From Naegleria gruberi (Eukaryota): 64,000 nt of DNA. Position 1 is the first letter of the stretch. Every line of letters begins with the position of its first letter. A program made the translations under genes and the position numbers. Shown in pieces: positions 1,413 to 31,431 of the stretch. The stretch lies in the NCBI GenBank assembly GCA_000004985.1, contig GG738862.1; one strand, 5' to 3'. The notes beneath the pieces are model-generated. The model was not told where the DNA came from. It saw nothing but the letters and a program-made list of their open reading frames with translations, and did not search any database.

Positions 1413-1536
1413 AAAGACTACAGCACCACAGGTTCCCAAGTTGTCTCCAACCTCAGTACTGATGTGGCTCGACGATGCTTAACTTCTCAAATCGGACGGG
1501 ATGAGGTGCATTCATCGTGATATGGCCGTAGCCATC
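1413..1536 (-). rRNA. 5S rRNA: 5S rRNA gene, copy 1 of 3
   Basis: The reverse complement reads xTGGCTACGGCCATATCACGATGAATGCACCTCATCCCGTCCGATTTGAGAAGTTAAGCATCGTCGAGCCACATCAGTACTGAGGTTGGAGACAACTTGGGAACCTGTGGTGCTGTAGTCTTT. This matches the universal 5S blocks (ACGGCCATA, CCCGTCCGAT, GAAGTTAAGC, AGTACT, GGGAA, GTGCTGTAG) and the terminal helix I pairing. It is followed on the RNA strand by a TTTTT run. Two near-identical copies lie at 24400–24523 and 55537–55659. Confidence 0.85.
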
Positions 1537-1939: not shown

Positions 1940-4900
1940 ATGCCACCATTGATCAGTTCATCATCTCTAAATGGTGATGAATTGGAAGAACTTGATCTCA
2001 ATGAAGATTATGCTAGTGGTGAAGTGTTTAAGAATGGGAATGATGATGATTCGTCTCCAGAGCCATTGCATAAGGGAGCTTCTTGGATATCAATCTTGTT
2101 CTTTATGTTTGCTGGCAAGTTGATGAGTATTGGCTTTAGAAGGGCTGGTGAGAATTATTTGATGAAAATGATAAAGAACATGTTGAATCGTGTTGGAATC
2201 TTTGGTCGATTTGAGATTAGAAAGGAGGAGGGAATGAATCATGGGGATATTCCCAAGTTGGCCGAAAGTGAAAAGTCAAGCAATCATTGTGAATTATTCG
2301 AAAGAGAATATAGAGAATTGTATCGTGAGAGGGGCAATTATCGTGAAGATGGAGGATTTAGAAAGAATTATGGAGGTCTATTGTTGAGAGTAATTGAGAG
2401 AGTTTATAGAAGAAGAGGATTGTATACAGTTTCTTTGTGGAGAGTTGCAGAAATGATATGTTTGTACATGTCACCACTCATTCTCTATATTTTACTCGAG
2501 TCAATCAAAGTTGATGAGTATGTGAAAAGTGCTATACCAGCAGCCACTCAATATTTAATTCCAACATCTTCTTACGGAATATTGAGTAATGACACTGTCA
2601 TTGCATCCAATTTCACAATGAACAATGAAACAAATTGGTTTCAAGAAAACTTGCCACTCTCAAATATTTTCTTCCAGTTAACTTTGGTACTTTTTTGCAA
2701 CTTCTAAAATTTGGATTCCACTCATTGGAGCTCTTCAAGGTTCAATCCTGCAAAAGTTGAATAGAATCAAGAGTGTGGAAAGAAGAAAATTCAAAAGTGG
2801 TGAGTTGAACAATCTATTTGCCATAGACACCAGAAGTGTAGCCATGGATGGTATTGATATTCATGAAGCTTGGTTAATGCCATTGACCTTAATTGTTGGT
2901 ATTGTGTTGGTTTTCGTATTTTTTGGATATAGCTCACTTGTTGGTGTTCTTGCAATGATTATATGTGGACCAGTTCTTCCATTTTTGGGTAAATATCAAA
3001 CTAGTTTTGCAGGCAAAGCTGCACAATTCAGAGATGAAAGAATCAAACACATGAGTGAAATATTGAATGGTATTAGAATTGTTAAATTTTATGTTTTTGA
3101 AGATAAGATGAAAGAAAAGGTTAATCAAGCAAGAGAAAAGGAATATTCACTCCTCCGAAAGTATGTTACTGTAATGAGTGGATATTGCTTTACTTCATCC
3201 CTGATGGCCATTGTTGGAAGTGGAGCTACTTTTGTGACTTTCTACTATGCAGGTGGAGATTTGACTTTACCTAAAATGTTTACTGGACTAGTGTTGTTTG
3301 GAACCTTTAGATTACCATTGTTGCATTTACCTTGGGCCATTTCAAACTTGGTTTTCGCCTATGTGAGTGCCAAACGTATTGGTAGATTCTTGTTTAGTGA
3401 AGATACTGAGAAATTGCCACATGATCATGAAAATAAGGCAAACTTGTGGGAATTTGATGAAGAACAAACAGAATTTTCGTCCATTATGGATAATGACACT
3501 GCTATTGAATGTAAGGATGCTTCCATTGGATGGTCAGAAGAGGAAGCTCCAACCCTCACTGATTTAAATTTGAAAATTGAGAGAGGAAAGCTCTACTGTG
3601 TCATTGGTAATACTGGTAGTGGAAAATCAACCTTAATTTCCTCCATTTATGGTGAATCTGTTGTAAAGAGCGGAAAAGTTAAAGTTAATCCATTGTGTAA
3701 TATTTCACTCAGTGATGAAACCCCATGGTTGATCAATGCATCTGTAAGGGAAAATATTGTCTTTGATAAGAATTTAACTTTTGACAGGGAAAGATATAAT
3801 AGAATATTGGATGTTTGTCAATTAAGAGATGATCTCAGTCGATTCCCAAATTATGATAAGACTGAAATTGGTTTTTCTGGAATTAATCTTTCAGGAGGTC
3901 AAAAACATAGAATTAGTTTAGCCAGAGCTTGTTACAGTAATTCTGAAATTGTCTTGATGGATTCCACACTCAACTCAATTGATGCCAAATTGTGTAGAAA
4001 GATTTTCAATGAATGCATTTGTGGATTTTTGAAGGATAGAACTAGAATTCTCGTTACACATTCACTTCAATTATTGGAAATGGCTGATGAAGTCATTGTT
4101 TTTGAGAATGGAAAGTTGATTGCTAAAGGGTCTTTGAAGGAAATTAAGAATTCCTATGACTTTTCCAAACTAATCTCTGAAGAAAAGGAAGAAAGTGAAA
4201 CAGAAGAGAATGAAGTAACAGAAAAGGATATGAAACAAGACGAAAAGAAAGGTCAACTCGTCGCTGCAGAAGATAAGAGCTATGGTGAAGTTAGTTGGTC
4301 TGTCTTTATGACCTATATCCGTCGGTGTGGAATTTTCTTAACTGTCATCAGTCTCCTTTTGAATGTAATGTCAATGGGTGCAAAAACAGCAAGTCAAGTC
4401 TGGATATCTGTTATGAATAGTGACATGCTTAGCTTACCTCTGGTTGCCTATGTTTGGGTTTTCTTCTCTTTTGGATTAATGGACTGTTTCATCATTTTCT
4501 TTAAGGAACTAAGCTTAGGATTTGCCACATTGAAAGGTTCTAACAATCTTCATAGAAGTATGCTGAATAACATTCTGAGAGCACCAATTCAATTCTTTGA
4601 TCAGAATCCAGTCGGAAGAATATTGAATAGATTCACTCAAGATTTGGAAACTTTGGATAATATGGTCATGTTTGCTTCGGATTTTATTAGCAATGTATTG
4701 AATATCATCTTTACCTTAACTCTAATTTCTGTAATTAATCCAATGTTTTTAATTGTGGTTGTTCCAATTGGTTTTGCATTTTACATAATTCAAGAATATT
4801 ATAGGACTACATCAAGAGAACTTAGAAGATTGGAATCGATTTCAAAGAGTCCTGTAATGTCACATTTCAATTCTTGTCTGGAAGGCGTCAATACTGTCAA

Positions 4901-6138
4901 GGCATCTCTTGTACATTCGAATATTTATGAGGATAGTTTTAACAAGATTGACTTTGCAAATAAGCATACCTTTAACAGATTTATGGTGAACAGATGGTTG
5001 GGTGTTAGAATCCATCTCAGTAAGTATTTTCACATTAACATTATTGCTCATCTTCACAGTTTCTCAATCTGTTTTGTTTTTTACTGCTATCTTTGCTATC
5101 ATTGCCAAACATACTCAAGAAATTAGTAGCCCAGCTTTCCTTGTATTGACCATTTCAAACTCTCTTCAGTTGAGTGATTGTTTCCAATCACTAGTTCGTT
5201 CGTTTGTTGAAGTTGAAAGTAACATGACTTGCGTGGAGAGAATTGTGTACTATGCTCAAAGTATCCCACAAGAAGCTGCCTACGATAAAGAAGGTGATCC
5301 AACCACAAGAGAATGGCCAACTAAGGGACACATTCAATTAGATCAATTGTCGGTAAGATACAGAGATGATTTGGATCCAGTTTTGAAGAATCTCGATTTG
5401 GATATCAAAGCAGGCACCAAAGTTGGTGTTGTAGGAAGGTATGTTTGAATATTTCTAACTTTCAAAATTAATATATAACATGAATATAGAACTGGAAGTG
5501 GAAAGAGTACTTTATTGATTTCTCTATTCAGATTCCTTGAAGCCAATGAAGGTAGCATCTCAATCGATGGTCTAGATATTTCCAATATTGGTTTGAGAAC
5601 TTTACGTAAAGCATTATTAATCATTCCTCAACAACCTGTTCTATTCTCTGGATCTATTCGATACAATTTGGATCCTTTCGATGAATTTGAGGATTATGAA
5701 ATATGGAATGCCCTCGAACGAGTTCATATGAAAGAAAAGATTCAACCACTCCAACTCTCCTTCACTGTTACTGAGAATGGAAGCAATTTTTCAATTGGTG
5801 AAAGACAATTACTCTCCCTTAGTAGATGTATTTTGAGGAAGGCAAATATTATCATCTTTGATGAATCCACTGCCTTTGTAGATCATAATAGTGATGAGTT
5901 GGTTCAGAAGGTTGTTAGGGAGGAATTTAAGGATAGTACAATCATAACCGTTGCTCACAGATTGGACACCATCATTGATTCGGATTGTATTGTATTTATG
6001 AAGGAGGGTGAAATTATAGAAACTGGAAGTCCAAAGGAATTACTCTTAGATGAAAGATCGAATTTCTCCTCTCTTGTGAGGGAAACTGGTAAACAATACT
6101 CTGACCACTTGAAGAACAAAGCTTTCAAGCTTGCTTAA
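1940..6138 (+). CDS. ABC transporter, ABCC/MRP subfamily (TMD–NBD–TMD–NBD); at least 4 exons
   Basis: ORFs 1775–2707, 2757–5126, 5002–5448 and 5515–6138 join into one MRP-like protein. NBD1 has Walker A GNTGSGKST and signature LSGGQKHRISLARA. TMD2 contains the MRP-conserved segment (NRWLGVRIHL ... FTAIFAII ... SNMTCVERI), and NBD2 reads VGVVGR|TGSGKSTL ... SIGERQLLSLSRC ... IIFDESTA. Introns: 5020–5059 (40 nt, GTAAGT..AG) and 5439–5489 (51 nt, GTATGT..AG). Both restore frame and are anchored to ORF ends. A further small intron is needed near 2687–2729 to join the first two ORFs; its exact position is uncertain. The first ATG in frame is at 1940 (MPPLISSS...); the ORF-track start at 1775 is a non-ATG codon. 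Stop TAA at 6136–6138. Confidence 0.85.
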
Positions 6139-9215: not shown

Positions 9216-10553
9216 ATGGAGAAAAAACTCGAGTCTCTCCAACGAGAAGAAATATTTTCAGATGATATTTGTTTTGAAATAATTTCCATGATTGATGATT
9301 CGTGGTTTATTTTGAATAATTGTTCCTTGATTTCAAAACAATTCTTTAATGTGATCAAGGAACGTTCAAAACTTTTTATTGAATTTAAAAAAAAATTTAC
9401 AGAAAAAAGAATTGAACTATTCACAAAGAGTCAATTTATGAATAGTATTGTTAAAGTTAAATTTTCAACAAATTTGTTTGTCTCTATTGAAAATCACAAA
9501 TTCATAAGTGAAATGAAACAATTAACTTCACTTAATATTTCTAACAATCAAATTAATGATGAAACAGCCAAATCAATAATTGAAATGAAACGATTAACAT
9601 CACTTGATATTGGTGGAAATCAAATTGGTGATGAAGGAATCAAATTAATTAGTGAAATGAAACAATTAACATTACTTGATATTAGTGGAAATAGTATTGG
9701 TGATAAAGGAGTCAAACCAATTAGTAAAATGAAACAATTAACATCACTTAATATTTATAACAACGAAATTGGTGTAGCAGGATCCAAATTTATAATTGAA
9801 ATGAAACAATTAACATCACTTGATATAAGCTACAATGAAATTGGTGATGAAGGAGCCAAATCAATAAGTGAATTGAAACAATTAACATCACTTACTGTTA
9901 GTGGAAATCAAATTGGTGATGAAGGAATCAAATTAATTAGTGAAATGAAACAATTAACATTACTTGATATTAGTGGAAATAGTATTGGTGATAAAGGAGT
10001 CAAACCAATTAGTAAAATGAAACAATTAACATCACTTAATATTTATAACAACGAAATTGGTGTAGCAGGATCCAAATTTATAATTGAAATGAAACAATTA
10101 ACATCACTTGATATAAGCTACAATGAAATTGGTGATGAAGGAGCCAAATCAATAAGTGAAATGAAACAATTAACATCACTTACTATTAGTGGAAATCAAA
10201 TTGGTGATGAAGGAATCAAATTAATTAGTGAAATGAAACAATTAACATTACTTGATATTAGTGGAAAATCAGTTGGTGATAAAGGAGTCAAATCAATTAG
10301 TAAAATGAAACAATTAACATCACTTACTATTTATACCAATGAAATTGGTGTAGCAGGAGCCAAATTTATAAGTGAAATGAAACAATTAACATCACTTGAT
10401 ATAAGCTACAATGAAATTGGTGATGAAGGAGCAAAATCAATAAGTGAATTGAAACAATTAACATTACTTGATATTAGTGGAAATGGAATTGGTGATGAAG
10501 GATCCAAATTTATAATTGGAATGAAACAATTAAAATCACTTGATATTCAGTAG
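9216..10553 (+). CDS. F-box-like / leucine-rich-repeat (RNI-type) protein, 445 aa
   Basis: The N-terminus is F-box-like (EIFSDDICFEIISMIDD..LISKQFFNVIKERSKL). It is followed by ~14 consecutive 24-residue RNI-like LRRs (LTSLDISGNQIGDEGIKLISEMKQ...). First ATG at 9216 with an A-rich context; TAG stop. Confidence 0.8.
   Translation: MEKKLESLQREEIFSDDICFEIISMIDDSWFILNNCSLISKQFFNVIKERSKLFIEFKKKFTEKRIELFTKSQFMNSIVKVKFSTNLFVSIENHKFISEMKQLTSLNISNNQINDETAKSIIEMKRLTSLDIGGNQIGDEGIKLISEMKQLTLLDISGNSIGDKGVKPISKMKQLTSLNIYNNEIGVAGSKFIIEMKQLTSLDISYNEIGDEGAKSISELKQLTSLTVSGNQIGDEGIKLISEMKQLTLLDISGNSIGDKGVKPISKMKQLTSLNIYNNEIGVAGSKFIIEMKQLTSLDISYNEIGDEGAKSISEMKQLTSLTISGNQIGDEGIKLISEMKQLTLLDISGKSVGDKGVKSISKMKQLTSLTIYTNEIGVAGAKFISEMKQLTSLDISYNEIGDEGAKSISELKQLTLLDISGNGIGDEGSKFIIGMKQLKSLDIQ
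9598..10480. repeat. intragenic tandem repeat, 288-bp unit (4 LRRs) x3; first two units near-identical
   Basis: The DNA block tcacttgatattggtggaaatcaaattggtgatgaaggaatcaaattaattagtgaaatgaaacaattaacattacttgatattagtggaaatagtattggtgataaagga... recurs almost base-for-base 288 bp downstream. A third, diverged copy follows. Confidence 0.7.
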
Positions 10554-10927: not shown

Positions 10928-12148
10928 ATGTTCCCATTTCACAAACGGAAAACCCAACTGTTGGACGAAACTTCATTGGAAACAGTGGATATTTTGTCTC
11001 TTGTTTTTCAATTTCTCGAGCTGAAAGAATTATTCGCTCTCCAAAAAGTATCACCCTTCTTCTACCGAACCATTGAACATTTGAAATCCTTACTGATCCG
11101 ACCAATATATGAAGTTGGTTTAGTTTCGTCCGATAAGAAACAATTATCGGAATTTCTTCAACTTACTTTAAAATCAGAATTAATTAGTTCAGCCACAAAG
11201 GAAAACCCACAAAAAGTTTCAAGTACTAGATACACTTATTATTCTACAACCGAAATCGACATGACAGATAAAAATGATGGCAATCAGCTCAAAAGTGTGA
11301 AATTTGGAGAGCATCATATGATTCATGCTTTTAACAAGGTTGAAAAGGAGTTTGTCTTTAAGAATGATAGATTTAGAGTATTCTTTTATCCATTGTATTG
11401 TGAAAAGAGTACGAGTTTATCACATGATGATTATCAACGACTGGATGGGTTCATATTTTTGAATCCAAACAGCAAAGATGGATATTCAACAATGCCGAAT
11501 GGATGTAGTTTTTGTGCAACACTCTTGGATTATAATAATTCTTCAGTTGCCAATGAAACAGTACTAATGCCAGTAAGAAATTTCGGATCTTTTAAAGTTG
11601 AGAAAGTGAGTGAAAGATATTCGATAGAACAATCAATTCTCGACTGTATTAATTACATTTCAGAGAACTCAAATCGATCAATTCAATTGAACTCAATAGG
11701 AGATGGCTTAAAATCATGTTTATTAGAAAAAATTTCATTAATCATTAAGGAACCCAATGATGAAATGGTTGCCACTAAAATATCAGATCTATTCAAGAAC
11801 AAATACACACTCAAAGAGCTGATACTCTCAGAGAAAGTGAGATACATGACCAGAAAATTGAATTTCTTCAATTATCCACACAATGTCCAATTCAGTCTTT
11901 TGAAAAGACTTTACACAGCTCATTTGGGAAATGAAAATGTTAAATTCAAAGATGATCTCTATGCCATTCAGGTTATTTTCAATCAGCAATTCAATTCTAG
12001 AAAAAGGGATTCATACGATGACCATTTGGTGGAAATGAAAACTACGCTCTCATTCAATTTAGTATCTCAGGAAATTAAGTTCGAATACAAGAATATTACA
12101 AGAGCAAGTACTATTGGCATTAGTAATAAAAAGTGCATCATTTGTTAG
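10928..12148 (+). CDS. F-box-like hypothetical protein, 406 aa, C-terminal ...KKCIIC
   Basis: The N-terminus has an F-box-like helix pattern (TVDILSLVFQFLELKELFALQKVSPFFYRTIEHL). Long non-repetitive ORF; first ATG at 10928; TAG stop. Confidence 0.6.
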   Translation: MFPFHKRKTQLLDETSLETVDILSLVFQFLELKELFALQKVSPFFYRTIEHLKSLLIRPIYEVGLVSSDKKQLSEFLQLTLKSELISSATKENPQKVSSTRYTYYSTTEIDMTDKNDGNQLKSVKFGEHHMIHAFNKVEKEFVFKNDRFRVFFYPLYCEKSTSLSHDDYQRLDGFIFLNPNSKDGYSTMPNGCSFCATLLDYNNSSVANETVLMPVRNFGSFKVEKVSERYSIEQSILDCINYISENSNRSIQLNSIGDGLKSCLLEKISLIIKEPNDEMVATKISDLFKNKYTLKELILSEKVRYMTRKLNFFNYPHNVQFSLLKRLYTAHLGNENVKFKDDLYAIQVIFNQQFNSRKRDSYDDHLVEMKTTLSFNLVSQEIKFEYKNITRASTIGISNKKCIIC

Positions 12149-12363: not shown

Positions 12364-13446
12364 ATGGGCAATAATCAAACCACTTCTCACAGATCCCTTC
12401 CTACCGAGCATGCATCTTTCTCCAATTCTTCTCGCGAATATGCCAATCAATACATAATGATCGCAGGTGGTCCATCAGTAGTAATTTATCAAGGCTTGGT
12501 TGATCAAATAATTTCTATCGAAAATCGAATAGAAAATGCTGCTAATTATGAGAAGGTAAAGAGTGAATGTCTGAAAGGTATTCAGCAACGTTTGGTGAAA
12601 TATTTCCCTGTTCATTTTCATGATACAGTTTCGGAAAAGATAGAAGAACAATTGGTTGACCTGTGGCATAGCCCCAATTTTAAAGAGGAATACTTTGCGA
12701 ATAGATTCCAGGTAGATCCATACTTGGTCTTGCCAACTGTATTTAATAATTTGGAGAGAGGAATCAAATTTAATTTGAAAAGAACTTGCTTGTTCCAACC
12801 AGCAGGTAGACAATATTATTTCACAACATGCTATTCGAAAACAACTGATAATTTTCCACACAGCCGTAATCAAAAGTTGACATTTGAATTATTTGCTAAT
12901 TGTTTTTCTGCTGATACTTGGGCTGATGTAGTTGGAGCATCATTTTCTCTATCTGACTATGATAACAATCAATATTTAGATGAATTTTATCAAGTGTGTA
13001 GAAGATTGTCTGGATTTTCTACATACAGAATGATTTTAATATTTACTCATCTTGATGTTCTCAATGAAAAGATAAAGTTGGGACTAATTAACTATGGAGG
13101 AGATAAAGATATAGAAATTCGAAAAGAATTCAATCATATTCCAAAAGAATGTGCTCTCATCATTGAATATCTCATCAAAGAAGCCAAAAAAAATATAGAA
13201 ATGAATCCAAGCCATGACTTTCCCAATAGGACATTGGAATACCACATTGTAAATACATCAAGTGACAGTGATATGAAAGAATTATTGGATTGTATTTGTA
13301 TTGGAGCAAATTCTAAGAGAAAATGCTTCATATCCTCTAAAATTGAAATGCCACCTTTCTCATATCCTAACACCAGATTCAAGAGCAACATGCACAGAAC
13401 CTCAGAACTAAATCAGTTTTGTGATATTGCAATATTGCTAAATTGA
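12364..13446 (+). CDS. G-alpha-like protein with degenerate nucleotide-binding motifs (pseudo-GTPase), N-terminal MG... myristoylation-type start, 360 aa
   Basis: Sequence blocks are collinear with heterotrimeric G-alpha subunits. The P-loop position reads IMIAGGPSVVIY (versus LLLLGAGESGKST). The switch II/DVGGQ position reads FELFANCFSADTWADV. The block ASFSLSDYDNNQYLDEFY matches CVALSDYD. The NKXD position reads ILIFTHLDVLNEKIK (versus ILFLNKKDLFEEKI). The C-terminal position reads HIVNTSSDSDMKELLDCI (versus FTCATDTKNVQFVFDAV). The protein starts MGNNQT. No intron is needed. Confidence 0.6.
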   Translation: MGNNQTTSHRSLPTEHASFSNSSREYANQYIMIAGGPSVVIYQGLVDQIISIENRIENAANYEKVKSECLKGIQQRLVKYFPVHFHDTVSEKIEEQLVDLWHSPNFKEEYFANRFQVDPYLVLPTVFNNLERGIKFNLKRTCLFQPAGRQYYFTTCYSKTTDNFPHSRNQKLTFELFANCFSADTWADVVGASFSLSDYDNNQYLDEFYQVCRRLSGFSTYRMILIFTHLDVLNEKIKLGLINYGGDKDIEIRKEFNHIPKECALIIEYLIKEAKKNIEMNPSHDFPNRTLEYHIVNTSSDSDMKELLDCICIGANSKRKCFISSKIEMPPFSYPNTRFKSNMHRTSELNQFCDIAILLN

Positions 13447-13492
13447 CTTTAGTTTTCCATTTCCTAAAGGTCAGAACTCTTCAAAATAAAAA

Positions 13493-14533
13493 ATGAGCCA
13501 ACAAGAAAAGGAGGAAACAGTGGCACCAACCAAAGAAGAATCACCACAGCCAGTTTTTCCCGATGATGTGATATTTGAAATTATTTCCTTCAATAATGAT
13601 TTTAAATTTACAGTAAGGAGTTGTGCGTTGGTTTCTTCACAGTGGTTTAATGTCATTTTGGAAAGATCAAAACTTTCACTCACACACAACAGTAAAAAGA
13701 AAATTAATGGCCAATTTTTACAGCGTATTGTAGCTGTCAATGGGATGAAAAAATGTGATTGTATTCCATTTCTTGATCAAGTATTTGATCTCAAGAACTT
13801 GACTACCCTTGACGTTAATTGTATGAAAATTAAAGATGAAGGAGTAAAGATAATAAGTGAAATGAAACAGTTGACCAATCTTAATGTAGGCAGCAGTGGT
13901 ATTAGTGTTGAGGGAGTCAAATATATCAGCGGCATGAATCAATTAACTAATCTCAATATAAGCCGCAATAATATACGAGCAGAAGGAGCCCGTTACGTTA
14001 GTGAAATGAAACTATTAACCAATCTTAATATTTATTTAAACGGTATTAGAGCAGAAGGTACCAAATACATCAGTGAAATGAAAGAATTGACTTGTCTTAA
14101 TATAATGAGTAATGCAATTCACGATAAAGGCGCAGAACACCTTCGTCAAATGCCTAAATTGAATACACTCAATATTAATTCAAATAGTATCAGTGTAGAA
14201 GGAGCCAAATTTATTAGTGAAATACAGTCATTAACTAATCTTGATATTGGTTTCAATACTATTGGAGATGACGGTGTCAAATTTATAAGCAAAATGGAAA
14301 AACTAACAAAACTTTATACAATGTACATTAATATTGGAGAAAAAGGAGCCAAACACATTAGTGAAATGGAACAATTAACTAGTCTCAATATTAATTCGAA
14401 TAATGTAGGAACAGAAGGAGCAAAGTACTTATGTGAAATGAAACATTTAACATATATGAATATTTGCAACAACAATGTAGACAAACAATCCCAATTTATC
14501 AAAGATGCTACAGTCTGTTTCATCCAATGCTGA
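13493..14533 (+). CDS. F-box-like / leucine-rich-repeat (RNI-type) protein, 346 aa
   Basis: The N-terminus (DDVIFEIISFNNDFKFTVRSCALVSSQWFNVILERSKL) parallels the 9216 gene. About 10 RNI-like LRRs follow (LTNLNISRNNIRAEGARYVSEMKL...). ATG at 13493; TGA stop. Confidence 0.75.
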   Translation: MSQQEKEETVAPTKEESPQPVFPDDVIFEIISFNNDFKFTVRSCALVSSQWFNVILERSKLSLTHNSKKKINGQFLQRIVAVNGMKKCDCIPFLDQVFDLKNLTTLDVNCMKIKDEGVKIISEMKQLTNLNVGSSGISVEGVKYISGMNQLTNLNISRNNIRAEGARYVSEMKLLTNLNIYLNGIRAEGTKYISEMKELTCLNIMSNAIHDKGAEHLRQMPKLNTLNINSNSISVEGAKFISEIQSLTNLDIGFNTIGDDGVKFISKMEKLTKLYTMYINIGEKGAKHISEMEQLTSLNINSNNVGTEGAKYLCEMKHLTYMNICNNNVDKQSQFIKDATVCFIQC

Positions 14534-18064: not shown

Positions 18065-19195
18065 ATGTTTTCGGGTTCAAAGTTGCGATTCCTGTGTCGT
18101 CGTCTGCATCAACATCAACATCATCAGATGATGGAGAGTAATTTTCATCATCAACATCAACAAACAATGCTTCTTCTTCGGAAATCCATGGTGATGAATA
18201 AACCACTCTATAATTATAGTACAAGCACAATAACAGCCAATGAAGCTACAACAACCGAGTCGACTCCAACAACCACTACTAATACACCAACAACAGCAAC
18301 AACAACTTCAACAACAACAAATTCTAATACAATGAAGTACACATCAACAGAAATTAGACTCATCAAGAAACAAAAAGAAAGAGTTTTGAAAAAGGAAAAG
18401 ATTGATGAAGTAGTTGGGAAACTTTTCAATATTAACCAGAAGAAGGAAATGGGACAATTTTCAGAAAATGTTGTGGATGTAGTATCGGAGACACCTGCTG
18501 TTGAAAAGAAGAAGAGAAAATCGAAAAAGGCTGAAGCTAAAGAAGCAGCATCAAAAGCAATTGTTGAAGAACCAATCAAGAAGGAAGCCTTTACAAATCC
18601 AGAAATCGATTCTCTTGTCGATAATATTCTCACCATGACCATTGCAGGACAAGCTAGTTTGGCTGCCTCTGCTGAAGAAGAAGATGAATTAATTTCTCTG
18701 TTAAAGACAAAGAGAAGACAAAGATTCAACACTTTAAATAGTAATAATGGTGTTAATGTTGGTCCGACAACTTACAAGTCATCAATCGACAAGTTTTCAC
18801 AACAAGAAGTTGATTTTAAACAATATACACAAACCAAGGAATCTGAATTGTCTTCACCTCTTGAAATGTCAGAAGAGGGTGATGAAGATATTAAAACTCC
18901 ACAAATTGATCCAGAGGATGAGGATATTCTTTCTTATTTACGTGAATTGAAGGATAGAACAGTCAAACAAAAGGAAGAAGAAAAGAAATCAGCATTGGAA
19001 AATGACAATGAATTGGATGAGGAAGATAAGATTGTTGAGAAAGCTTGGCAAGATATTGCCTCAAAGCCAGAAAGTGCTGCCAAGACTGTAGAAGCTGAAC
19101 TTGATGAACCAGTTTCAAGATCTTCTAAATCATCTTCCAATAATTCAAAGAAGGACGATGTCATTATGCAATTTTTACAAGATCTCCTCAAATAA
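18065..19195 (+). CDS. hypothetical charged/low-complexity protein (His/Gln, Thr-rich, then K/E-rich), 376 aa
   Basis: ATG-initiated ORF with coding-like periodicity. It has poly-Thr/Asn tracts and a K/E-rich middle. No recognisable domain. Confidence 0.5.
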   Translation: MFSGSKLRFLCRRLHQHQHHQMMESNFHHQHQQTMLLLRKSMVMNKPLYNYSTSTITANEATTTESTPTTTTNTPTTATTTSTTTNSNTMKYTSTEIRLIKKQKERVLKKEKIDEVVGKLFNINQKKEMGQFSENVVDVVSETPAVEKKKRKSKKAEAKEAASKAIVEEPIKKEAFTNPEIDSLVDNILTMTIAGQASLAASAEEEDELISLLKTKRRQRFNTLNSNNGVNVGPTTYKSSIDKFSQQEVDFKQYTQTKESELSSPLEMSEEGDEDIKTPQIDPEDEDILSYLRELKDRTVKQKEEEKKSALENDNELDEEDKIVEKAWQDIASKPESAAKTVEAELDEPVSRSSKSSSNNSKKDDVIMQFLQDLLK

Positions 19196-24399: not shown

Positions 24400-24523
24400 A
24401 AAAGACTACAGCACCACAGGTTCCCAAGTTGTCTCCAACCTCAGTACTGATGTAGCTCGACGATGCTTAACTTCTCAAATCGGACGGGATGAGGTGCATT
24501 CATCGTGATATGGCCGTAGCCAT
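24400..24523 (-). rRNA. 5S rRNA: 5S rRNA gene, copy 2 of 3
   Basis: Identical to copy 1 except one substitution (gatgtAgctcg versus gatgtGgctcg). Followed on the RNA strand by a T7 run. It shares an upstream element with copy 1 (see findings). Confidence 0.85.
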
Positions 24524-24759
24524 TCATTACTTCAAAATGTTAAACTTCAATCTATCATCAAACGAAGTTCTGAATAACAAGATTTTCGATGAAATCACTT
24601 GATTCATCTTTTGATATTTGTAACAAATTATATTAACTAATAATTTACATAATTGTTTGCCTTAACTCCCAAATGGACTTTGCTTTACAATTAGCCATTA
24701 AAAAAACTCCGACAGATGTCCTCTTAAAATAAAAATAAAAATATTTGAATTTAAAAAAA

Positions 24760-26539
24760 ATGAACAAACAAATACTGGGCCTTGCTCTCACGCTCTTGCT
24801 CTGTATTTCTTGTAGCGTATTTGCTTTGGACGCAACCGTTTACTATCAAAATGGTAAATATGTTGTTAAAAACGGATATGATTTGCAATCTGGTATTGCC
24901 GCAGCACATTATGATGATAGTTTTGAAGCTAAAGGATGGGATGTTCTCTCTATCGAAACTAATCACTTGACCAAGGATGATATGCAAAGTTATGGTGCTG
25001 GTTATTTGGAAGGTGTATTGACTAGAAAGAGAATTTATAATCACTATGTCAATATGCACACTTATTCATGGGCCAGTACTCCTGATAAGAAAATGCCACA
25101 ATATGTGAGAGATTTCTTTGAATCTCAACGTGCTTGGGTCAGAGATTCATCTGCCAAGTATGCCAACGATCCTTTCTGGCAACAAATCAAGACCGTTTAC
25201 TTGCAAATGGAAGGTCTCGTTCAAGGTTACAATGATGCTACTACTGATGCTTCCGAAAAAATTGATTATGCTAGCATGCAAGTTATGAGCTCTTTTGGTG
25301 ACATTTTCGATATTCTCAATGTCAAGAAGGATTTCAGACCAAACTTTAACAAGATGACTCCTGCTCAAGTTATTCAATTCGCTCAAGACAATGGTCACTG
25401 TTCTGCCTTGTTCAAGGTTACTCCAGATTTCAGTAATATCTACTTTGGACACACATCTTGGTTTACGTTTAGGTAGAGTTTCGTTTGTTTTTGACATTTT
25501 TTGTTATCTAACCATGTGCATTTTGTTAATATTTTACTGTTTATGTCACTTTTCACTTTTTAATTGAATTTTCACACATTCAGTGCTATGACGTAAGTTT
25601 CCTATTGCTGTTTTCTAACCATTAATCTCACGTTAAATTTTCAGTCGTATCTACAAGACTTACACTTTCAACTTCAACAGCAGATTGGTTGCTTCACCAA
25701 AGGTTACTTTCTCAAGTTACCCAGCTAATCTTGCTTCTAATGATGATTTTTACATTACTCAAAGTGGATTGGTTGTTATTGAAACATCTAACAATATTTT
25801 CAATACTTCTCTCTATGATTTGGTTAAGCCACAATCATTGCTCTGTTGGCAAAGAGTTATTTTGGCTAACAGACTTGCTGATGATGCTCCTTCTTGGAAT
25901 GATATCTTCTCTGAATATAACTCTGGTACTTACAATAACCAATTCATGGTTTTGGATACTAAGAAATTCGTTCCAGGTCAACCACTTGCCAAGAACTTGT
26001 TCTGGGTTGTTGAACAAATTCCAGGTAAGGTCGTTGGTGGTGACCAAACTGAAGTTCTTAGCTATGGTTATTGGCCAAGTTACAATGTTCCATTCTATCC
26101 AGAAGTTTTCACCATTTCTGGATATCCTGAAATTTTGAAGAAACCAAATGCTTCTGATATGTTGTCATACGAAACTTGTGTCAGAGCTAACATCTTCAGA
26201 AGAGATCAATATAAGGTCAACTCAATTGATGGAATGAAGAACATACTTAGATATAACAATTGGAAGTATGATCCACTTTCTCTTGGACAACCTGGATACG
26301 CAATTGCTTCTCGTAACGATTTGTCTCCAACTGCTACTGATGCTACAAGAAGCTGCAGTGGTGGTTATGATACTAAGGTTTCCTCAATTCTCGACATTAA
26401 CACTGTCCATATTATCAATGGTCCAACCAGTGTTGATCAACCAGTCTTTGCTTGGAATGGTCAATGCCCTGCCAAGTTCAGCCATGTTGGTTTGAAGCAA
26501 TCTTTCAAATATGATTGGATGACTGTTAAATGGAATTAA
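24760..26539 (+). CDS. phospholipase B-like (PLB/LAMA family) secreted protein; 2–3 exons including a candidate 9-nt micro-exon
   Basis: Signal peptide MNKQILGLALTLLLCISCSVFA. PLB-like family blocks are present across both ORFs (...DNGHCSALFKVTPDFSNIYFGHTSWFTF ... RIYKTYTFNF ... FMVLDTKKF ... WPSYNVPFYPEVF ...). Exon 1 is 24760–25472 with donor GTAGAG. The last exon is 25645–26539, acceptor TTTTCAG, anchored to the ORF. Between them, 25584–25592 (TGCTATGAC) is flanked by CATTCAG| and |GTAAGT. Including it gives ...HTSWFTFSAMTRIYK..., with an extra Ala-Met-Thr. Confidence 0.8.
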
Positions 26540-26617: not shown

Positions 26618-29600
26618 ATGACTGCAAACATCAACAAGCTTCAGTGCTGGCGGTCTTACTTGTTGATTCTTCTCTCTGTTATCCTTCTCGTTGGTGATGC
26701 ATCACCATTATCTTCATCAGCCCACTCAACATATGTTCGCTATCAGTTTGAAACTCTTGCCGGAAACCTTCAACCAGTTTTTTCTCTGTCATTCAAACAA
26801 ATTCAACAATCCAAAGTCAATCCTGATATTCTCTTCATAGTGTCTGCAAGTGATTCTCTTTACAAGTACAATCAAACAAGTGGAGAAAGGAACCTACTGG
26901 TCGGATGTGATGTGTTATCCTATAACTTGTGCATTAAAGAATCAATGGTAACCAACATTTCCCATCTGGCAACATCTGTTTCTATCTACATTACTGGATT
27001 TCATGTGATGGTTTCTTCTAATGAACAAGTAATTTATATTAGCACCGACCATCAATTGTTTCGAATGGAAAATAAGAATATTACACTCCTTTCGGCAATG
27101 TGGTCGACTAGTGATGAAAATCCAAACTTGGATGGAATGCATATTTCGGATAGTTGGTTTAGGTTTTTAAAATCAGTTGTTGTTGATGAAGATGAGAAGA
27201 CTTTATATCTTGCAGATGGACAAGTTATTAGAAAGTTGGATGTGGAAACTGGTATTTTAAAGTCCATCACAACAACAGGAGATGACCCAGTATCTAAGTT
27301 TGATGGACCTGCCAATCAGACTGTTCTTAAACTGCCACAAAAACTACTCCTTCATAATGGATTTCTTTATGGAAATGATGCATTTTCACTTTTTAAAATT
27401 AATATTCAAAGTGGATGGTTGACAGTAATAACTGGCACGATCAATTATATATTAGGTGTTAATTTTCCAGCTCCAAAATCAGGTGATAATGCTAAAAATT
27501 CAACACTTTTATCAATTCGTGGATTTCACATTATGGAGGATGATTCCATTCTAATAATTTCTGGAAATACTTTTTATCAGATCGATCAAAAAAGTGGATT
27601 ACTAACTATACTTTACAATTTTGAAGAAGCTATCTTTTTGGCAACACCCAATTTGGTATTTTCATTACAAAAGGTTTACAAATTAAATAGATTGAATTGG
27701 TCTATGGAAACAATTATAGATTCACATATTGGGGCCATTACGGATGGTTCAATAGCAAAGAATAGAAAATTCTTTGACATTTCAGCACTGACAATGAACG
27801 AAACCACTGGGGATTTACTATTTTCTGATTCATTGTCAAATTACAATCTTTACAAAGTTGATAAGGATGGAAGGTTTTTCACAGTGAATTTACAAATGTC
27901 AAACGTATCTTGTTGGAATTCCTCTATCAGAACTGATAGCTCTTTAACATTCAATCCAGTCTCTTTCCAATTGAGAAACTCTACTTTATATGTTGCCAAT
28001 TCTGGAATGCACAGTTCAATCCAAAAATTTGATCTATCTCAACAAGGATCAAGTTGCTTCTATTCAGGATCAATTTCAAGTGATAGACTTTTGCAACAAG
28101 GGAGTGGACTATCCATGTTGGTTAATAACCCTACTGGATTATATTGTAATATCAATTCTGACGAGATATTTGTTGCCGACACTGAAAACCACAGAATTCT
28201 CAAATATATTTCACATAATCTAGTTCAAGTAATTGCAGGTACTGGAAAGCAAGGTTTTTCAGGAGATGGTGGCTTAGCCATTCATGCTCAACTGAATAGA
28301 CCTCACTCAATTTCCTACGATCGTTCCAATAGAGATCTTTACATTGCAGGTATGTCATTCATTTTCATTATTTTAACATTCATAAAGATTCTGGAAATCA
28401 CAGAATTCGAAAGATTTCTTCTGATGGAACTATTTCTACAATTTTAGGAACTGGCTCGGGTGGATTTAATGGAGATGGTCTCCCTCCATTACAAACGCAA
28501 ATTAATTTCCCTAAAGGTGTTACTTACTCACCCTTTCTGGGAATTGCAATTTCTGATACCTATAACCATAGAGTGAGATTATTTAGAGAAGGAAATGTGA
28601 GCACAATATTGGGAACTGGAACATCTGGAATGAAAGTAGTGGAGGATAATCCAACAGAGACAGAGATTATTTCACCTTTTGGTCTGGTTTGGGCTGAATC
28701 AACTTCATCCCTTTACATAGCTGGTAAGTTTCGAATTTTAGTCGAACATTGACAAATTGTTTCAGATCAATTCAATCACAGAATATTACATCTCCAATAT
28801 CTATATGGTAGTGTAGCAATCATTGCAGGAACCAATTTACCTGGATATAATGGAGATGGCATGAAAGCTAACTTAGCCAAACTATTTCTTCCAAGTTCTG
28901 TAGTTTTGGCTCCTGACAATACAATTCTAATTGCAGACACTTACAATAATTTAATAAGGAAAATTAGTAATGGAATAATTTCTTCATTTGAAACAAAAAT
29001 TGGTCTTGGTCAATCCTATCAAATCAAACAACCGATTGGGTTGTGTTTAACATTATCTGGACCTTTTGTGACAACTGAAAATGCCGTTACCTCATTAAGT
29101 TCAGGCTATACCTCCAACATAATTGGAGGAAATGGAGATGGAATGAATGTTTATTATGCAGATGTTAATCCAACAAGAATGATACTCTCTCCATTTGGAA
29201 ATGAAGGATCAATGATATTTTCAGAATCGAATTCGAATAGAATAAGATATGTCGACAGTAATGGAATCATTTCAACCATTGTTGGTTGTGGAGTATTTGG
29301 ATATATGGGTGATAAATATCCTTCTCAATTTGCCTTTCTTGCTTCACCTACTGGTATAGCACTGAATCCAATAACAAATGATTTAATTTTCTGCGATACC
29401 TCCAATAATCGTATTAGAATAGCTTCTATAAATGAATTAAACGTAGTTGATACGATTGCTGGAACAGGAAATAGCGCATATGATTCAGAAGTATCAGATC
29501 CCTTACTCTCACCACTCAATAAGCCAAGAGTGGTTGCCACATTTAGCAATGGTGACATTGTCATTGGAGACACTTTAAATAATCTATTCAAGATGATTTC

Positions 29601-31431
29601 AAGGAGAGACGGAAAAATTAGAGCCATTGGTATGGGATTTGCAACTGACATGTACGTCACTAAGGATAACATTATCATCTTTTCATCAAGGGAAGAACTT
29701 ATCAAGATGGTTCCTTATTGTGATCTTGGCTATCAATTAGTTGAGAAAAATACCGACTGCATTCCAGTATGTTTTGGATTGACTGGAAATTTGACATGTA
29801 CTAGAAATGGAGAATGCACCTTACCAAATACTTGTAAATGCTCACCTGATTTCACTGGAAAAGCGTGCGAAATTCCAATTTGTTTTGGTTTACCATCCAA
29901 TTCTTCTAATGTTTGTAATAATGGAAATGGAACCTGTGTGTCACCAAATAAGTGCGTTTGTAATGATGGGTTTTATGGAGATCAGTGTCAATATCCTCTT
30001 TGTTTCTCATCATTAATAGAGGAATCATGTGGTGGAATTAATAGAGGAAGGTGTGTCCATAGAAATAAGTGTGAATGTAAGGATAATTTCACAGGTAGAC
30101 AATGTGAATATAGATCTTGTCTTGGAAAGAGTGAAGTTGACCAAAAAGTTTGCAATGGAAATGGTAGGTGTGGATCTGCAGGAAAATGCGAATGTAATTT
30201 GGGTTATTCTGGAGCAGATTGTTCTGATTTGACTCAAGTCTATGCAGTGAGCATCACAGCTGCTGTCATCTTATTAATTTTGATTATTCTAATTCTTGTT
30301 TCTTCTATTTTAGGATGGTTTTTATATAAGAGAAACAGGAGAGATCGAAAGATTATTGAAACAGAACTCTCTCTTGATGAAAGACTCTTGGCAACTACAG
30401 ATCTTGAGCTCTCCCAATTCAGCACAAGTGTTGGTTCAGGATCTCAATCATCCTCAGATGATTCTCCTTCATTTGTCATTCCACTTCACAAGCTAGGAAT
30501 GGATAAGCCAATTCGTAGATTGGGAGAAGGAGGCATGGGAAGCGTATTCATGACCAAATATAATGGAATGATTGTTGCTGTCAAGGTTTTTGATTTGAAT
30601 AATTTCAATATTTCAGAGGAAGATTTTAGAAATGAAGCCATTTTACTAAGTAGAATCAGACACCCAAATATTATAACTTTCTATGGAGTTTCTTCATCTC
30701 CTACGAAACGTTTTATAGTAATGGAATGTTTGGATCAGAGCTTGGAAAAGTTTATTTCTAAATTGGAAACTAAACTAATCAATCTTTCATTAGACCAAAA
30801 ATTGAAAATGTTATTGAATATTGCTAATGGAATTGAATATCTACATACAATGCAACCTAGAAAGATTATTCACCGTGACTTGAAACCTCAAAATATCCTT
30901 CTAGATTCGAATGGAAATTGTAAAGTTTGCGATTTTGGATTAAGCAAATCCATTTCACAAGGAACTATCTCAACAATCACTAATCAATTAGGTACTTTTT
31001 ATTATATGAGCCCAGAAATGTTTGATATTGAAGCTGTCGATCCTACTTACGCTACTGCAATTGACATTTACAGTTTCAGTATTATTGGATGGCAATTATT
31101 ATTCGAAAGCAAAGATCCTTACGTTTACAATAGTCAAGAAGTAGCTAGAAAGTTGAGCTCCAAACTACTCGAACATGTAACCTCCTACCAATTGACCAAG
31201 TTAATTTGTGAAAACAATCACAGACCTGCCATTCCATTCAATTCTCTCAAATCATGTCGTGAATGGTGTTTGGAATTTTTACCCACAACTGAACAAGAAA
31301 ATTATTCAATAGTATTCAAGTTATGCCAACTCATCAAACAATGTTGGCAAGGAAATCCAAAACTTCGACCAAGCATTGAACAAATTGTTGAACAATTACA
31401 AACCTTAGAACAAGAATTTAACAAGATTTAA
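26618..31431 (+). CDS. receptor-type protein kinase: signal peptide, large NHL-repeat ectodomain, ~5 tenascin-type EGF-like Cys repeats, one TM helix, TKL-like Ser/Thr kinase domain; 3 exons, ~1577 aa
   Basis: Exons are 26618–28349, 28388–28723 and 28766–31431. Introns are 28350–28387 (GTATGT..AAG, 38 nt) and 28724–28765 (GTAAGT..CAG, 42 nt). Both interrupt NHL motifs (LYIAG|DSGNHRIRKI; LYIAG|DQFNHRILHL) and restore frame into the ORF starting at 28861. NHL repeats (..ADT.NHRI.K...) are spread over residues ~100–950. EGF-like repeats are CxCxxGFxGxxCxxxxC (residues ~1000–1170). TM helix is VYAVSITAAVILLILIILILVSSILGWFLY. Kinase motifs are GEGGMGSV, VAVKVF, HRDLKPQNILLD, DFGLSK, YMSPE. Confidence 0.8.

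What the first reader, a model, noticed from the sequence alone, without database searches (positions are those of the whole stretch)
12364..13446. G-alpha-like protein that has lost every GTP-binding motif, embedded in an F-box/LRR gene cluster
The protein is collinear with heterotrimeric G-alpha: an N-terminal MG start, an SDYD block, a (F/I)LNKKDLxEEKI-like block and a C-terminal TCATDT-like block. The P-loop GxGESGKST is replaced by AGGPSVVIY. DVGGQ is replaced by ADTWADV. NKXD is replaced by THLD. Such a protein cannot bind or hydrolyse GTP in the usual way, yet it retains the fold-defining spacing. That combination suggests a scaffold, decoy or regulatory pseudo-GTPase. It sits between F-box/LRR genes (9216–10553, 10928–12148, 13493–14533). 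A 7TM–RGS protein that would normally act on a G-alpha is encoded at 59411–61209.
Basis: partly seen in the sequence, partly recalled or inferred. Interest (0 to 1): 0.7.

Follow-up and report, generated by a model that had tools for sequence, protein, structure and literature searches.

The report
Degenerate G-alpha paralog in Naegleria gruberi
This gene of the amoeba Naegleria gruberi encodes a real but highly diverged relative of the G-protein alpha subunit that has lost the sequence motifs needed to bind GTP; it is one extreme member of this organism's very large G-alpha family, where such degenerate copies have already been noted.

Summary
The ORF at 12364-13446 (+, 360 aa) is real. It is 99% identical to N. 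gruberi XP_002668607 (NAEGRDRAFT_54707).

**Homology to G-alpha is solid.**
- Pfam G-alpha scores E 3.5e-7 but falls below the gathering score.
- hhalign against Pfam-positive relatives gives 99.6% probability, E 8e-25.
- hhalign against canonical G-alphas alone gives E 9.5e-6.

**Placement.** The protein nests (95/100 bootstrap) in a Naegleria-specific G-alpha clade. The clade has TKPD in place of NKxD, VNT in place of CAT, and a C-terminal extension of about 45 aa.

**Motif loss.**
- There is no GK[S/T] anywhere in the protein.
- The switch-I arginine is lost.
- The DVGGQ/switch-II segment is absent. It is not "replaced by ADTWADV".
- NKxD is THLD.
- Only 11 of 43 near-invariant G-alpha positions survive.

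**Evidence of constraint.** The ORF is intact, a paralog is 53% identical, and conservation varies by region. These argue for a constrained protein, most likely a nucleotide-free, myristoylated pseudo-GTPase scaffold or decoy. That role is inferred, not shown.

**Context.** The F-box/LRR neighbours and the RGS gene 46 kb away are genomic background, not a functional cluster. Degenerate G-alphas in Naegleria are already mentioned in the literature. This is a new member of a known kind, of modest interest.

The parts
12364..13446 (+). Complete single-exon ORF (360 aa plus stop) encoding the degenerate G-alpha-like protein. It is 99% identical to N. gruberi XP_002668607 / NAEGRDRAFT_54707.
   Evidence: three residue differences from the NCBI protein
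12364..12450 (+). N-terminal tail (aa 1-29), MGNNQTT... It matches the N-myristoylation pattern MGxxx[ST] shared by clade members. No helix is predicted here, so the canonical alpha-N helix is not recognisable.
   Evidence: clade N-termini MGAKNSK, MGSKQSV, MGTKPSR, MGSKQSR; no helix, pLDDT about 40
12451..12528 (+). Remnant of beta1 / P-loop / alpha1 (aa 30-55). YIMIAGGPSVVIYQG sits where KLLLLGAGESGKST lies in canonical G-alpha. There is no GK[S/T].
   Evidence: pLDDT below 50; only 12% identity to paralog P0002, which lacks most of it
12529..12771 (+). All-helical domain (aa 56-136), including the conserved LW-x-x-P-x-F-[KR]-E motif (LVDLWHSPNFKEEYF).
12772..12921 (+). Remodelled switch I / beta2 / beta3 / switch II region (aa 137-186). 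The catalytic Arg is replaced. DVGGQ and most of switch II are absent (TFELF-ANCFS). A 5-aa insert SADTW is present.
   Evidence: pLDDT about 30; yet 61% identical to paralog P0002
12922..13083 (+). beta4-alpha3-beta5-alphaG (aa 187-240). It contains SLSDYD (195-200) and ILIFTHLD (224-231), where THLD takes the place of NKxD. Only the Asp is kept.
   Evidence: pLDDT 77-92
13084..13299 (+). Clade-specific region between alphaG and alpha4, then alpha4, beta6 and alpha5 (aa 241-312). It contains IRKEF.HIP and EYHIVNT, where VNT takes the place of CAT of the G5 motif.
   Evidence: pLDDT 75-96
13300..13446 (+). Clade-specific C-terminal extension (aa 313-360 plus stop) with CFIS and FCDIAILLN. It follows alpha5, where canonical G-alpha chains end.
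   Evidence: present in all 12 clade members and absent from the 46 canonical G-alphas

Best explanation
The gene encodes a pseudo-GTPase derived from a heterotrimeric G-protein alpha subunit.

**Origin.** It arose inside a Naegleria-specific G-alpha clade that belongs to the organism's large lineage-specific G-alpha expansion. The clade had already changed the guanine-contacting motifs (TKPD for NKxD, VNT for CAT). It had also gained an insert after alphaG and a C-terminal extension of about 45 aa after alpha5.

**Further losses in this lineage.** The lineage comprises this gene, its N. gruberi paralog NAEGRDRAFT_62775 and one environmental fragment.
- The P-loop Gly-Lys-Ser/Thr is gone.
- The switch-I Arg is gone.
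- The DxxGQ/switch-II segment is gone.
- The G4 Lys has become His.

**Most likely mode of action (inferred).**
- The protein is nucleotide-free.
- It is held at a membrane by N-myristoylation.
- It cannot cycle, form a canonical G-beta-gamma heterotrimer or be a substrate of RGS proteins.
- It acts through its best-kept surfaces as a constitutive adaptor, or as a competitor (decoy) for the partners of its GTP-competent clade relatives. Those surfaces are the helical domain, the beta4-to-alpha5 half and the clade-specific insert and C-terminal extension.

**What is shown and what is inferred.** Shown: homology, fold, motif loss, clade membership and signs of constraint. Inferred: absence of nucleotide binding, lipidation, loss of G-beta-gamma and RGS binding, and the scaffold or decoy role.
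For: **Identity.**
- 99% identical to a N. gruberi predicted protein. A paralog is 53-55% identical.

**Homology.**
- Pfam PF00503 E 3.5e-7.
- An exhaustive profile search of 1.84 billion representatives found only 9 hits. Named sources exist only for Naegleria species (four of the nine hits); the other five are unnamed environmental sequences. Five hits pass the Pfam G-alpha threshold, one at 172 bits.
- hhalign against these relatives: 99.6%, E 8e-25 over residues 95-358.
- hhalign against 46 canonical G-alphas alone: 82.7%, E 9.5e-6 over residues 70-311.

**Fold.**
- AlphaFold with 58 sequences gave pTM 0.68, with a confident helical domain and C-terminal Ras half.
- The Foldseek top 50 are all G-alpha.

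**Clade.**
- Bootstrap is 95/100 for the C-extension clade and 100/100 for this gene plus its paralog, which sit on a long branch.

**Motif loss.**
- No GK[ST], no DxxGQ in register and no NKxD.
- 11 of 43 near-invariant canonical positions are retained, against 30 of 43 for clade member P0008.

**Graded erosion within the clade.**
- P0008 and P0012 have an intact P-loop and DVGG(Q/R).
- P0004 and P0006 are partly eroded.
- P0009, P0005 and P0007 are largely eroded.

**Constraint.**
- A 360-codon stop-free run has a chance probability of about 6e-13 at this base composition.
- Identity to the paralog is uneven: 78% in beta6-alpha5, 67% in beta4-alphaG, 61% in the remodelled switch region and 12% in the P-loop remnant.
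- The K-to-H change (THxD) is shared by all three lineage members.

**Lipidation pattern.** The MGxxx[ST] start is shared with clade members.
Against: - No experiment or transcript evidence was available, so expression is unproven. The one paper whose supplements were queried holds none as text.
- dN/dS could not be computed because no DNA of the paralog or of the other allele could be fetched.
- No ortholog was found in N. fowleri or N. lovaniensis. The closest hit is 28% identical. The lineage is therefore young or fast-evolving, and that is also what a gene on the way to loss would look like.
- The structure model is of low confidence for residues 3-55 and 137-186. The state of the former nucleotide pocket is therefore read from sequence only.
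- The alignment given to AlphaFold contained canonical G-alphas, so the fold match is not fully independent of the sequence evidence.
- The G4 Asp (D231) and a Ser/Thr-rich switch-I remnant are retained, so some non-canonical ligand binding cannot be excluded.
- The scaffold or decoy role has no direct support.
Confidence: 0.85

Rival explanations
1. It is a decaying or non-functional gene copy. On this view it is a by-product of the very large G-alpha expansion in N. gruberi, is not under selection for any activity, and still happens to have an open frame.
For: - It sits on a long branch.
- All catalytic motifs are lost.
- There is no close ortholog in N. fowleri or N. lovaniensis.
- The P-loop remnant is only 12% identical to the paralog.
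- No expression data were found.
Against: - The 360-codon frame is intact in a 34% GC genome, where the median stop-free run is 9 codons. The chance probability is about 6e-13.
- The paralog at 53% identity and an environmental homolog are also open over the parts seen.
- Conservation is strongly region-dependent, including 61% identity in the remodelled switch region.
- Changes such as THxD are derived but shared by the lineage.
Confidence: 0.1
2. The protein still binds a nucleotide or another small ligand in a non-canonical way and works as an atypical switch. Precedents are some plant XLG proteins and class ii/iii pseudo-GTPases that bind nucleotide without hydrolysing it.
For: - The guanine-specificity Asp of G4 (D231) is invariant in the whole alignment.
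- A Ser/Thr-rich switch-I remnant (YSKTTD) is kept.
- The remodelled switch region is conserved between the paralogs, and a conserved His replaces the G4 Lys.
- Plant XLGs show that G-alphas with deviant motifs can remain functional (PMC8584482).
Against: - There is no phosphate-binding loop anywhere in the protein.
- Paralog P0002 lacks the beta1/P-loop/alpha1 segment altogether, as annotated.
- The DxxG that contacts Mg2+ and the gamma-phosphate is missing.
- AlphaFold gives no ordered pocket there.
Confidence: 0.05
3. The G-alpha-like gene is functionally coupled to its neighbours. It would be a substrate or adaptor of the flanking F-box/LRR ubiquitin-ligase subunits, or a partner of the 7TM-RGS protein in the same window.
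For: - It is co-oriented with and tightly packed among the neighbours. Only 46 bp separate its stop from the next ATG.
- LRR_6 and F-box signals occur in the neighbours.
- An RGS domain lies at 59986-61206.
Against: - F-box genes occur throughout the window: 32003-33274 and 42556-44166 as well.
- Nearly all genes over about 49 kb share the + strand, so co-orientation is not specific to this gene.
- Homologs in L001 and L002 are not embedded in F-box/LRR genes; L001 has only a faint LRR hit on a gene about 3.7 kb from the homolog.
- N. fowleri has 107 RGS genes (PMC9283941).
- The RGS gene is 46 kb away.
- RGS binding needs the switch regions, which are absent here.
Confidence: 0.03

Closest known systems
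Canonical heterotrimeric G-protein alpha subunits (Pfam PF00503; e.g. human G-alpha-i1, Entamoeba EhG-alpha-1, Arabidopsis GPA1)
   Same: - Collinear blocks: LW motif, LSDYD, beta5, beta6-alpha5.
- An MGxxx[ST] N-terminus.
   Different: - It is below the Pfam gathering score (30.1 against 48.8 bits).
- None of the motifs G1 to G5 is intact.
- Switch II is shortened by 9-13 residues.
- No alpha-N helix is recognisable.
- A 48-aa extension follows alpha5, where the receptor-coupling C-terminus normally ends.
Naegleria-specific G-alpha clade with a C-terminal extension (N. gruberi XP_002675255 / NAEGRDRAFT_50404, P0012, P0013; N. lovaniensis XP_044553234, XP_044549842; environmental P0006-P0008, P0010)
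   Same: - Shared derived features: [TV]KPD-type G4, EYHIVN[TS] G5, the insert Y.R..N..IR.EL..I after alphaG, and the C-terminal FIS...[CT]DI extension.
- The group is monophyletic at 95/100 bootstrap.
   Different: - Members such as P0008 and P0012 keep GxSDSGKST and DVGG(Q/R) and pass the Pfam threshold (172 bits for P0008).
- The window protein and its paralog have lost these motifs and carry THxD instead of TKPD.
Plant extra-large G proteins (XLG1-3)
   Same: They are G-alpha-derived proteins with deviant nucleotide-binding motifs, and they act in a largely nucleotide-independent way (PMC8584482).
   Different: - The origin is independent: XLGs come from plant GPA-type G-alpha.
- XLGs have a long N-terminal Cys-rich/NLS extension and still bind G-beta-gamma and RGS.
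- Here there is no N-terminal extension, and the switch II needed for G-beta-gamma contact is missing.
PseudoGTPases in general (e.g. the AAGAB N-terminal domain, degenerate septins, CENP-M)
   Same: The GTPase fold is retained while the G motifs are lost. Known examples work through protein-protein interaction (PMC12490416, PMC10731463).
   Different: - Those examples derive from small-GTPase or septin lineages, not from G-alpha.
- Absence of nucleotide binding is shown by experiment for them and only predicted here.

Membership tests
Heterotrimeric G-protein alpha subunit (PF00503) | Ras-like GTPase domain with an inserted all-helical domain | tested here: met
   - The hhalign alignments span the helical domain and the Ras-like half.
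- pLDDT is 82-92 for residues 56-136.
Heterotrimeric G-protein alpha subunit (PF00503) | Scores at or above the Pfam gathering threshold (48.8 bits) | tested here: not met
   30.1 bits, E 3.5e-7, matching only residues 208-309. Paralog P0002 scores 15.8 bits.
Heterotrimeric G-protein alpha subunit (PF00503) | G1 P-loop GxxxxGK[ST] | tested here: not met
   There is no GK[ST] in the protein. The aligned segment reads IAGGPSVVIYQG.
Heterotrimeric G-protein alpha subunit (PF00503) | G2 / switch I RxxTxGI, with the catalytic Arg and the Mg-binding Thr | tested here: not met
   The aligned residues are T/Y for Arg, S for Thr and T for Gly. The alignment is of low confidence in this segment.
Heterotrimeric G-protein alpha subunit (PF00503) | G3 DxxGQ followed by the switch II helix | tested here: not met
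   These columns are gaps in the window protein and in P0002. After beta3 the sequence reads ANCFS.
Heterotrimeric G-protein alpha subunit (PF00503) | G4 NKxD | tested here: not met
   THLD at 228-231. Only the Asp is retained.
Heterotrimeric G-protein alpha subunit (PF00503) | G5 TCA[TS] | tested here: not met
   IVNT at 295-298. The whole clade shares VN[TS].
Heterotrimeric G-protein alpha subunit (PF00503) | Binds and hydrolyses GTP; forms a heterotrimer with G-beta-gamma | not testable with these tools
   This needs purified protein. Loss is predicted from the missing motifs, the missing switch II and the unrecognisable alpha-N helix.
Naegleria C-terminal-extension G-alpha clade (defined here) | Shared derived characters ([TV]KxD G4, EYHIVN G5, post-alphaG insert, FIS...[CT]DI C-terminal extension) and monophyly | tested here: met
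   Alignments. NJ bootstrap 95/100. The G4 Lys is His in this protein.
PseudoGTPase (GTPase fold without functional G motifs) | GTPase fold retained while the motifs for nucleotide binding and hydrolysis are lost | tested here: met
   Fold. Motifs.
PseudoGTPase (GTPase fold without functional G motifs) | Experimentally shown to lack nucleotide binding and/or hydrolysis | not testable with these tools
   No biochemical data exist for this protein. The searches found nothing.
Plant XLG-type atypical G-alpha | Long N-terminal Cys-rich/NLS extension fused to a G-alpha-like domain; descent from plant G-alpha | tested here: not met
   The protein is 360 aa and begins directly with MG. It nests among Naegleria sequences.

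The most novel reading that the evidence does not exclude
The window protein and its paralog would be the endpoint of a Naegleria-specific G-alpha clade that has left the receptor / G-beta-gamma / RGS cycle.
- In this clade the C-terminal extension replaces the receptor-coupling tail, and partner binding runs through the alphaG-alpha4 insert and the extension.
- The dead members would be bona fide nucleotide-independent regulators, for example membrane-anchored decoys that titrate the partners of the GTP-competent members.
- Their remodelled but conserved switch region (61% identical between the paralogs) would form a new interaction surface.
- That would make this a G-alpha-derived pseudo-GTPase that arose independently of the plant XLGs.
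Probability: 0.3. Interest if true: 0.5.

Novelty: new member of a known kind. Interest (0 to 1): 0.3.

Why it matters
N. gruberi is reported to have about 44 G-alpha genes, perhaps the largest known set (Anantharaman et al. 2011, as cited in PMC8584482). The same review notes that some Naegleria G-alphas deviate in their catalytic motifs.

This gene is a clear and extreme example: every G box is lost, switch II is missing, and the frame and fold are still preserved. If it is expressed and functional, it would be an origin of a nucleotide-independent G-alpha separate from the plant XLGs. It would also give a handle on what the helical domain and the C-terminal half of G-alpha can do without a nucleotide.

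As it stands, this is an annotation-level refinement of an uncharacterised 'predicted protein', not a new kind of system.

Tried and rejected
**Searches that found nothing.**
- Single-sequence phmmer against PDB sequences: no hit.
- Three-sequence profile against PDB sequences: only a chance hit at E 2.3.
The similarity is visible only at profile level.

**DNA for a dN/dS test.** Exact look-ups of the window protein, P0001 and P0002 found no record. No dN/dS test was possible.

**More members of the dead lineage.**
- Two metagenome scans found none.
- One attempt failed because no stretch of the alignment was conserved enough to search with.
- A word-indexed search with the clade profile returned only 3 proteins.

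**Expression.**
- No paper mentions the locus tags or accessions.
- The one N. gruberi RNA-seq paper queried for supplements holds none as text.

**Literature.** Anantharaman et al. 2011 (PMC3396428) is not held. It is cited only second-hand, through PMC8584482.

**Ideas rejected.**
- 'DVVG' at 188-191 as the G3 motif. It lies 9 residues before SDYD instead of 28, it sits in beta4, and its Gly is Ala in the paralog.
- A missing exon carrying the P-loop. The single ORF is collinear with G-alpha from the MG start to beyond alpha5, and the NCBI protein (P0001) has the same 360-aa length.
- A truncated BTB domain behind the C-terminal 'LCDIxL' strand. All 12 clade proteins end within about 5-15 residues of it.
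- A functional F-box/LRR or RGS gene cluster (see the rival explanations).

**First AlphaFold run.** With 10 sequences it was too poor in the N-terminal half (pLDDT 55.9) and was repeated with 58 sequences.
Full report
**1. What is in the sequence**

The coordinates are exact. One ORF runs from 12364 to 13446 on the + strand, 360 aa. It begins at the first start codon after an upstream stop and reads MGNNQTT.

- The window is AT-rich, 31-38% GC. The median stop-free run over the six frames is 9 codons. A 360-codon open frame has a chance probability of about 6e-13 at this composition.
- The protein is 99% identical, with three substitutions, to N. gruberi XP_002668607 / EFC35863 (NAEGRDRAFT_54707), which is labelled 'predicted protein'. 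A paralog, NAEGRDRAFT_62775 (P0002, 326 aa), is 53-55% identical.
- No tRNA or Rfam family lies in or next to the ORF.
- The antisense ORFs at 12475-12873 and 13134-13391 lie wholly inside the ORF on the opposite strand and were not examined further.

**2. Is it a G-alpha?**

Single-sequence methods barely see the similarity.
- Pfam PF00503 matches only residues 208-309, at E 3.5e-7 and 30.1 bits. This is below the 48.8-bit gathering score.
- phmmer against PDB sequences finds nothing.
- BLASTP against human G-alpha-i1 finds nothing.

Profile methods settle it.
- A profile of the window protein and its paralog was searched against 1.84 billion representative proteins. It found only nine proteins.
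- Named sources exist only for Naegleria species: N. gruberi and N. lovaniensis account for four of the nine hits. The other five are unnamed environmental sequences.
- Five hits pass the Pfam G-alpha threshold, one (P0008) at 172 bits.
- hhalign of the dead pair against these relatives gives 99.6% probability and E 8e-25 over residues 95-358.
- hhalign against 46 canonical G-alphas alone, with no intermediates, still gives 82.7% and E 9.5e-6 over residues 70-311.

Structure prediction agrees.
- AlphaFold with a 58-sequence alignment gives pTM 0.68. Residues 56-136 (helical domain) and 187-330 (beta4 to alpha5) are confident.
- Foldseek's top 50 are all G-alpha for both models.
- Caveat: the alignment given to AlphaFold contained canonical G-alphas, so the fold evidence is not fully independent of the sequence evidence.

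**3. Where it sits in the family**

In a neighbour-joining tree of 56 sequences, the window protein and its paralog pair at 100/100 bootstrap on a long branch. The pair lies inside a clade of ten sequences, from Naegleria species and unnamed environmental sources, supported at 95/100.

All clade members share derived characters that the 46 canonical G-alphas lack:
- [TV]KPD in place of NKxD.
- EYHIVN[TS] in place of TCAT.
- An insert after alphaG (Y.R..N..IR.EL..I).
- A C-terminal extension of about 40-48 residues after alpha5 (FIS...[CT]DI).

Within the clade the nucleotide motifs erode in steps:
- P0008 and its N. gruberi ortholog P0012 keep GxSDSGKST and DVGG(Q/R).
- P0004 and P0006 keep the P-loop but have DVDGS or DFGGS.
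- P0009 has lost the P-loop Lys.
- P0005 and P0007 have lost the P-loop.

**4. Which motifs are lost here**

| Element | State in the window protein |
|---|---|
| G1 (P-loop) | No GK[ST] anywhere. The collinear segment reads IAGGPSVVIYQG. |
| G2 (switch I) | Arg, Thr and Gly positions read T/Y, S and T. |
| G3 and switch II | After beta3 (TFELF) the sequence is ANCFS. The segment up to beta4 is 9-13 residues shorter than canonical. |
| G4 | THLD. Only the Asp is kept. The Lys-to-His change is shared with the paralog and with the environmental fragment P0003. |
| G5 | IVNT. |

It is not the G3 position.
- 'DVVG' at 188 lies in beta4 and is not conserved in the paralog.
- Of 43 columns that are at least 85% conserved in canonical G-alphas, this protein keeps 11. 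The paralog keeps 8 and P0008 keeps 30.
- The two regions that AlphaFold cannot place, residues 3-55 and 137-186, are the ones that normally hold the nucleotide and form the switches.
- No helix is predicted for residues 1-29, so the alpha-N helix that contacts G-beta-gamma is not recognisable.

**5. Is it still a working gene?**

Direct evidence is missing.
- No paper names the locus, and the one paper queried for supplements holds none as text.
- No DNA of the paralog or of the other allele could be fetched for a dN/dS test.

The indirect evidence favours constraint.
- The frame is intact, and a second intact paralog exists.
- An environmental homolog carries the same derived THPD.
- Identity between the paralogs depends strongly on region:

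| Region | Identity to P0002 |
|---|---|
| beta6-alpha5 | 78% |
| beta4-alphaG | 67% |
| Remodelled switch region | 61% |
| Helical domain | 49% |
| P-loop remnant (largely absent from P0002 as annotated) | 12% |

The switch region is therefore changed but not free to drift.

**6. How it most likely works (inference)**

- Without a P-loop, without the DxxG that contacts Mg2+ and the gamma-phosphate, and without switch II, the protein should not bind or hydrolyse GTP.
- For the same reasons it should not present the switch surfaces used by G-beta-gamma, RGS domains and classical effectors.
- What it keeps is an MGxxx[ST] N-terminus that fits the N-myristoylation pattern shared by the clade, the helical domain, the beta4-to-alpha5 half, and the clade-specific insert and C-terminal extension.
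- The most economical reading is a membrane-anchored, nucleotide-free pseudo-GTPase. It would bind the clade's partners constitutively, as an adaptor or as a competitor of its GTP-competent relatives.
- I put about 0.85 on 'constrained G-alpha-derived pseudo-GTPase', and roughly 0.3-0.4 on the specific adaptor or decoy role.

**7. Context**

The 'F-box/LRR cluster' is not specific to this gene.
- 9216-10553 and 13493-14533 are RI-type LRR proteins with at most weak F-box signals. 10928-12148 has a borderline F-box and no LRR.
- Further F-box genes lie at 32003-33274 and 42556-44166.
- Relatives in an environmental contig and in N. lovaniensis are not embedded in F-box/LRR genes. The environmental contig has only a faint LRR hit on a gene about 3.7 kb from the homolog.

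The 7TM-RGS gene is real but uninformative.
- The RGS domain scores E 1.6e-11, and about seven hydrophobic segments lie across two ORFs, which were not checked for a joining intron.
- It is 46 kb away.
- N. fowleri alone has 28 7TM-RGS genes plus 79 other RGS genes (PMC9283941).

No canonical G-alpha is encoded in the window.

**8. Comparison with what is known, and novelty**

- N. gruberi is reported to have about 44 G-alpha genes.
[quoted passage not shown] 2011, which I could not read).
- Lineage-specific G-alpha diversification in N. gruberi is also reported in PMC3971589.
- The public record of this protein already carries a precomputed PF00503 hit.
- Plant XLGs are the best-studied functional analogue, but they arose independently and have a different architecture.

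The finding is therefore a correct recognition of an extreme member of a known phenomenon: a new member of a known kind. Interest is modest, about 0.3. It would rise to about 0.5 if the protein proved to be an expressed, nucleotide-independent regulator.

Noticed in passing
window 1775-50551: Nearly every ORF of 150 aa or longer in this stretch of about 49 kb is on the + strand, roughly 30 genes in a row. The '-' ORF at 18214-18732 overlaps a + ORF. The strands mix only after about 50.6 kb. This looks like a long directional gene cluster.
   Followed up: no
window 1415-1533, 24403-24521, 55539-55657 (all - strand): Three dispersed, full-length 5S rRNA genes (Rfam RF00001, 103-105 bits) are scattered among protein-coding genes rather than arranged in a tandem array.
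   Followed up: no
window 13446-13493: Only 46 bp separate the stop codon of the G-alpha-like ORF from the ATG of the next co-oriented LRR gene. This leaves very little room for a 3' UTR, a promoter and a 5' UTR.
   Followed up: no
window 9216-10553, 10928-12148, 13493-14533, 32003-33274, 42556-44166: Five genes with F-box or F-box-like N-termini lie in 64 kb: two with RI-type LRRs, one with Sel1 repeats and two with no recognised C-terminal domain. This is consistent with a large genome-wide F-box expansion.
   Followed up: partly
window 24745-25476 + 25685-26539; 59411-59935 + 59986-61209; 2757-5126 + 5515-6138: Pairs of adjacent same-strand ORFs each encode parts of one protein: phospholipase B, 7TM-RGS and an ABC transporter. 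They may be joined by introns; this was not checked.
   Followed up: partly
window 26618-28447 and 28861-31431: An NHL-repeat protein lies next to a receptor-like kinase with an NHL + EGF + protein-kinase architecture.
   Followed up: no
window 12364-13446, residues 74, 244 and 275: The window protein differs from NCBI XP_002668607 at three residues (Q74H, Y244F, K275I). That reference protein is recorded on a contig of only 12.7 kb. The window probably represents another haplotype or a different assembly of N. gruberi.
   Followed up: partly
window 13300-13446 and clade proteins P0002-P0013 (C-termini): All 12 clade members end with a conserved FIS[PS]...L[CT]DIx[IL] extension of unknown function after alpha5. 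The terminal hydrophobic strand-like motif resembles strand beta1 of the Ras-like domain, which several members lack. Its role is unexplained.
   Followed up: partly
L002 8592-9551 and 10001-11178 (N. lovaniensis PYSW02000008.1): In N. lovaniensis the closest clade relative (P0004) lies directly downstream of an Arf/Roc-type small GTPase gene. The P0004 gene span (1178 nt for 318 aa) implies introns, unlike the single-exon gene in the window.
   Followed up: no
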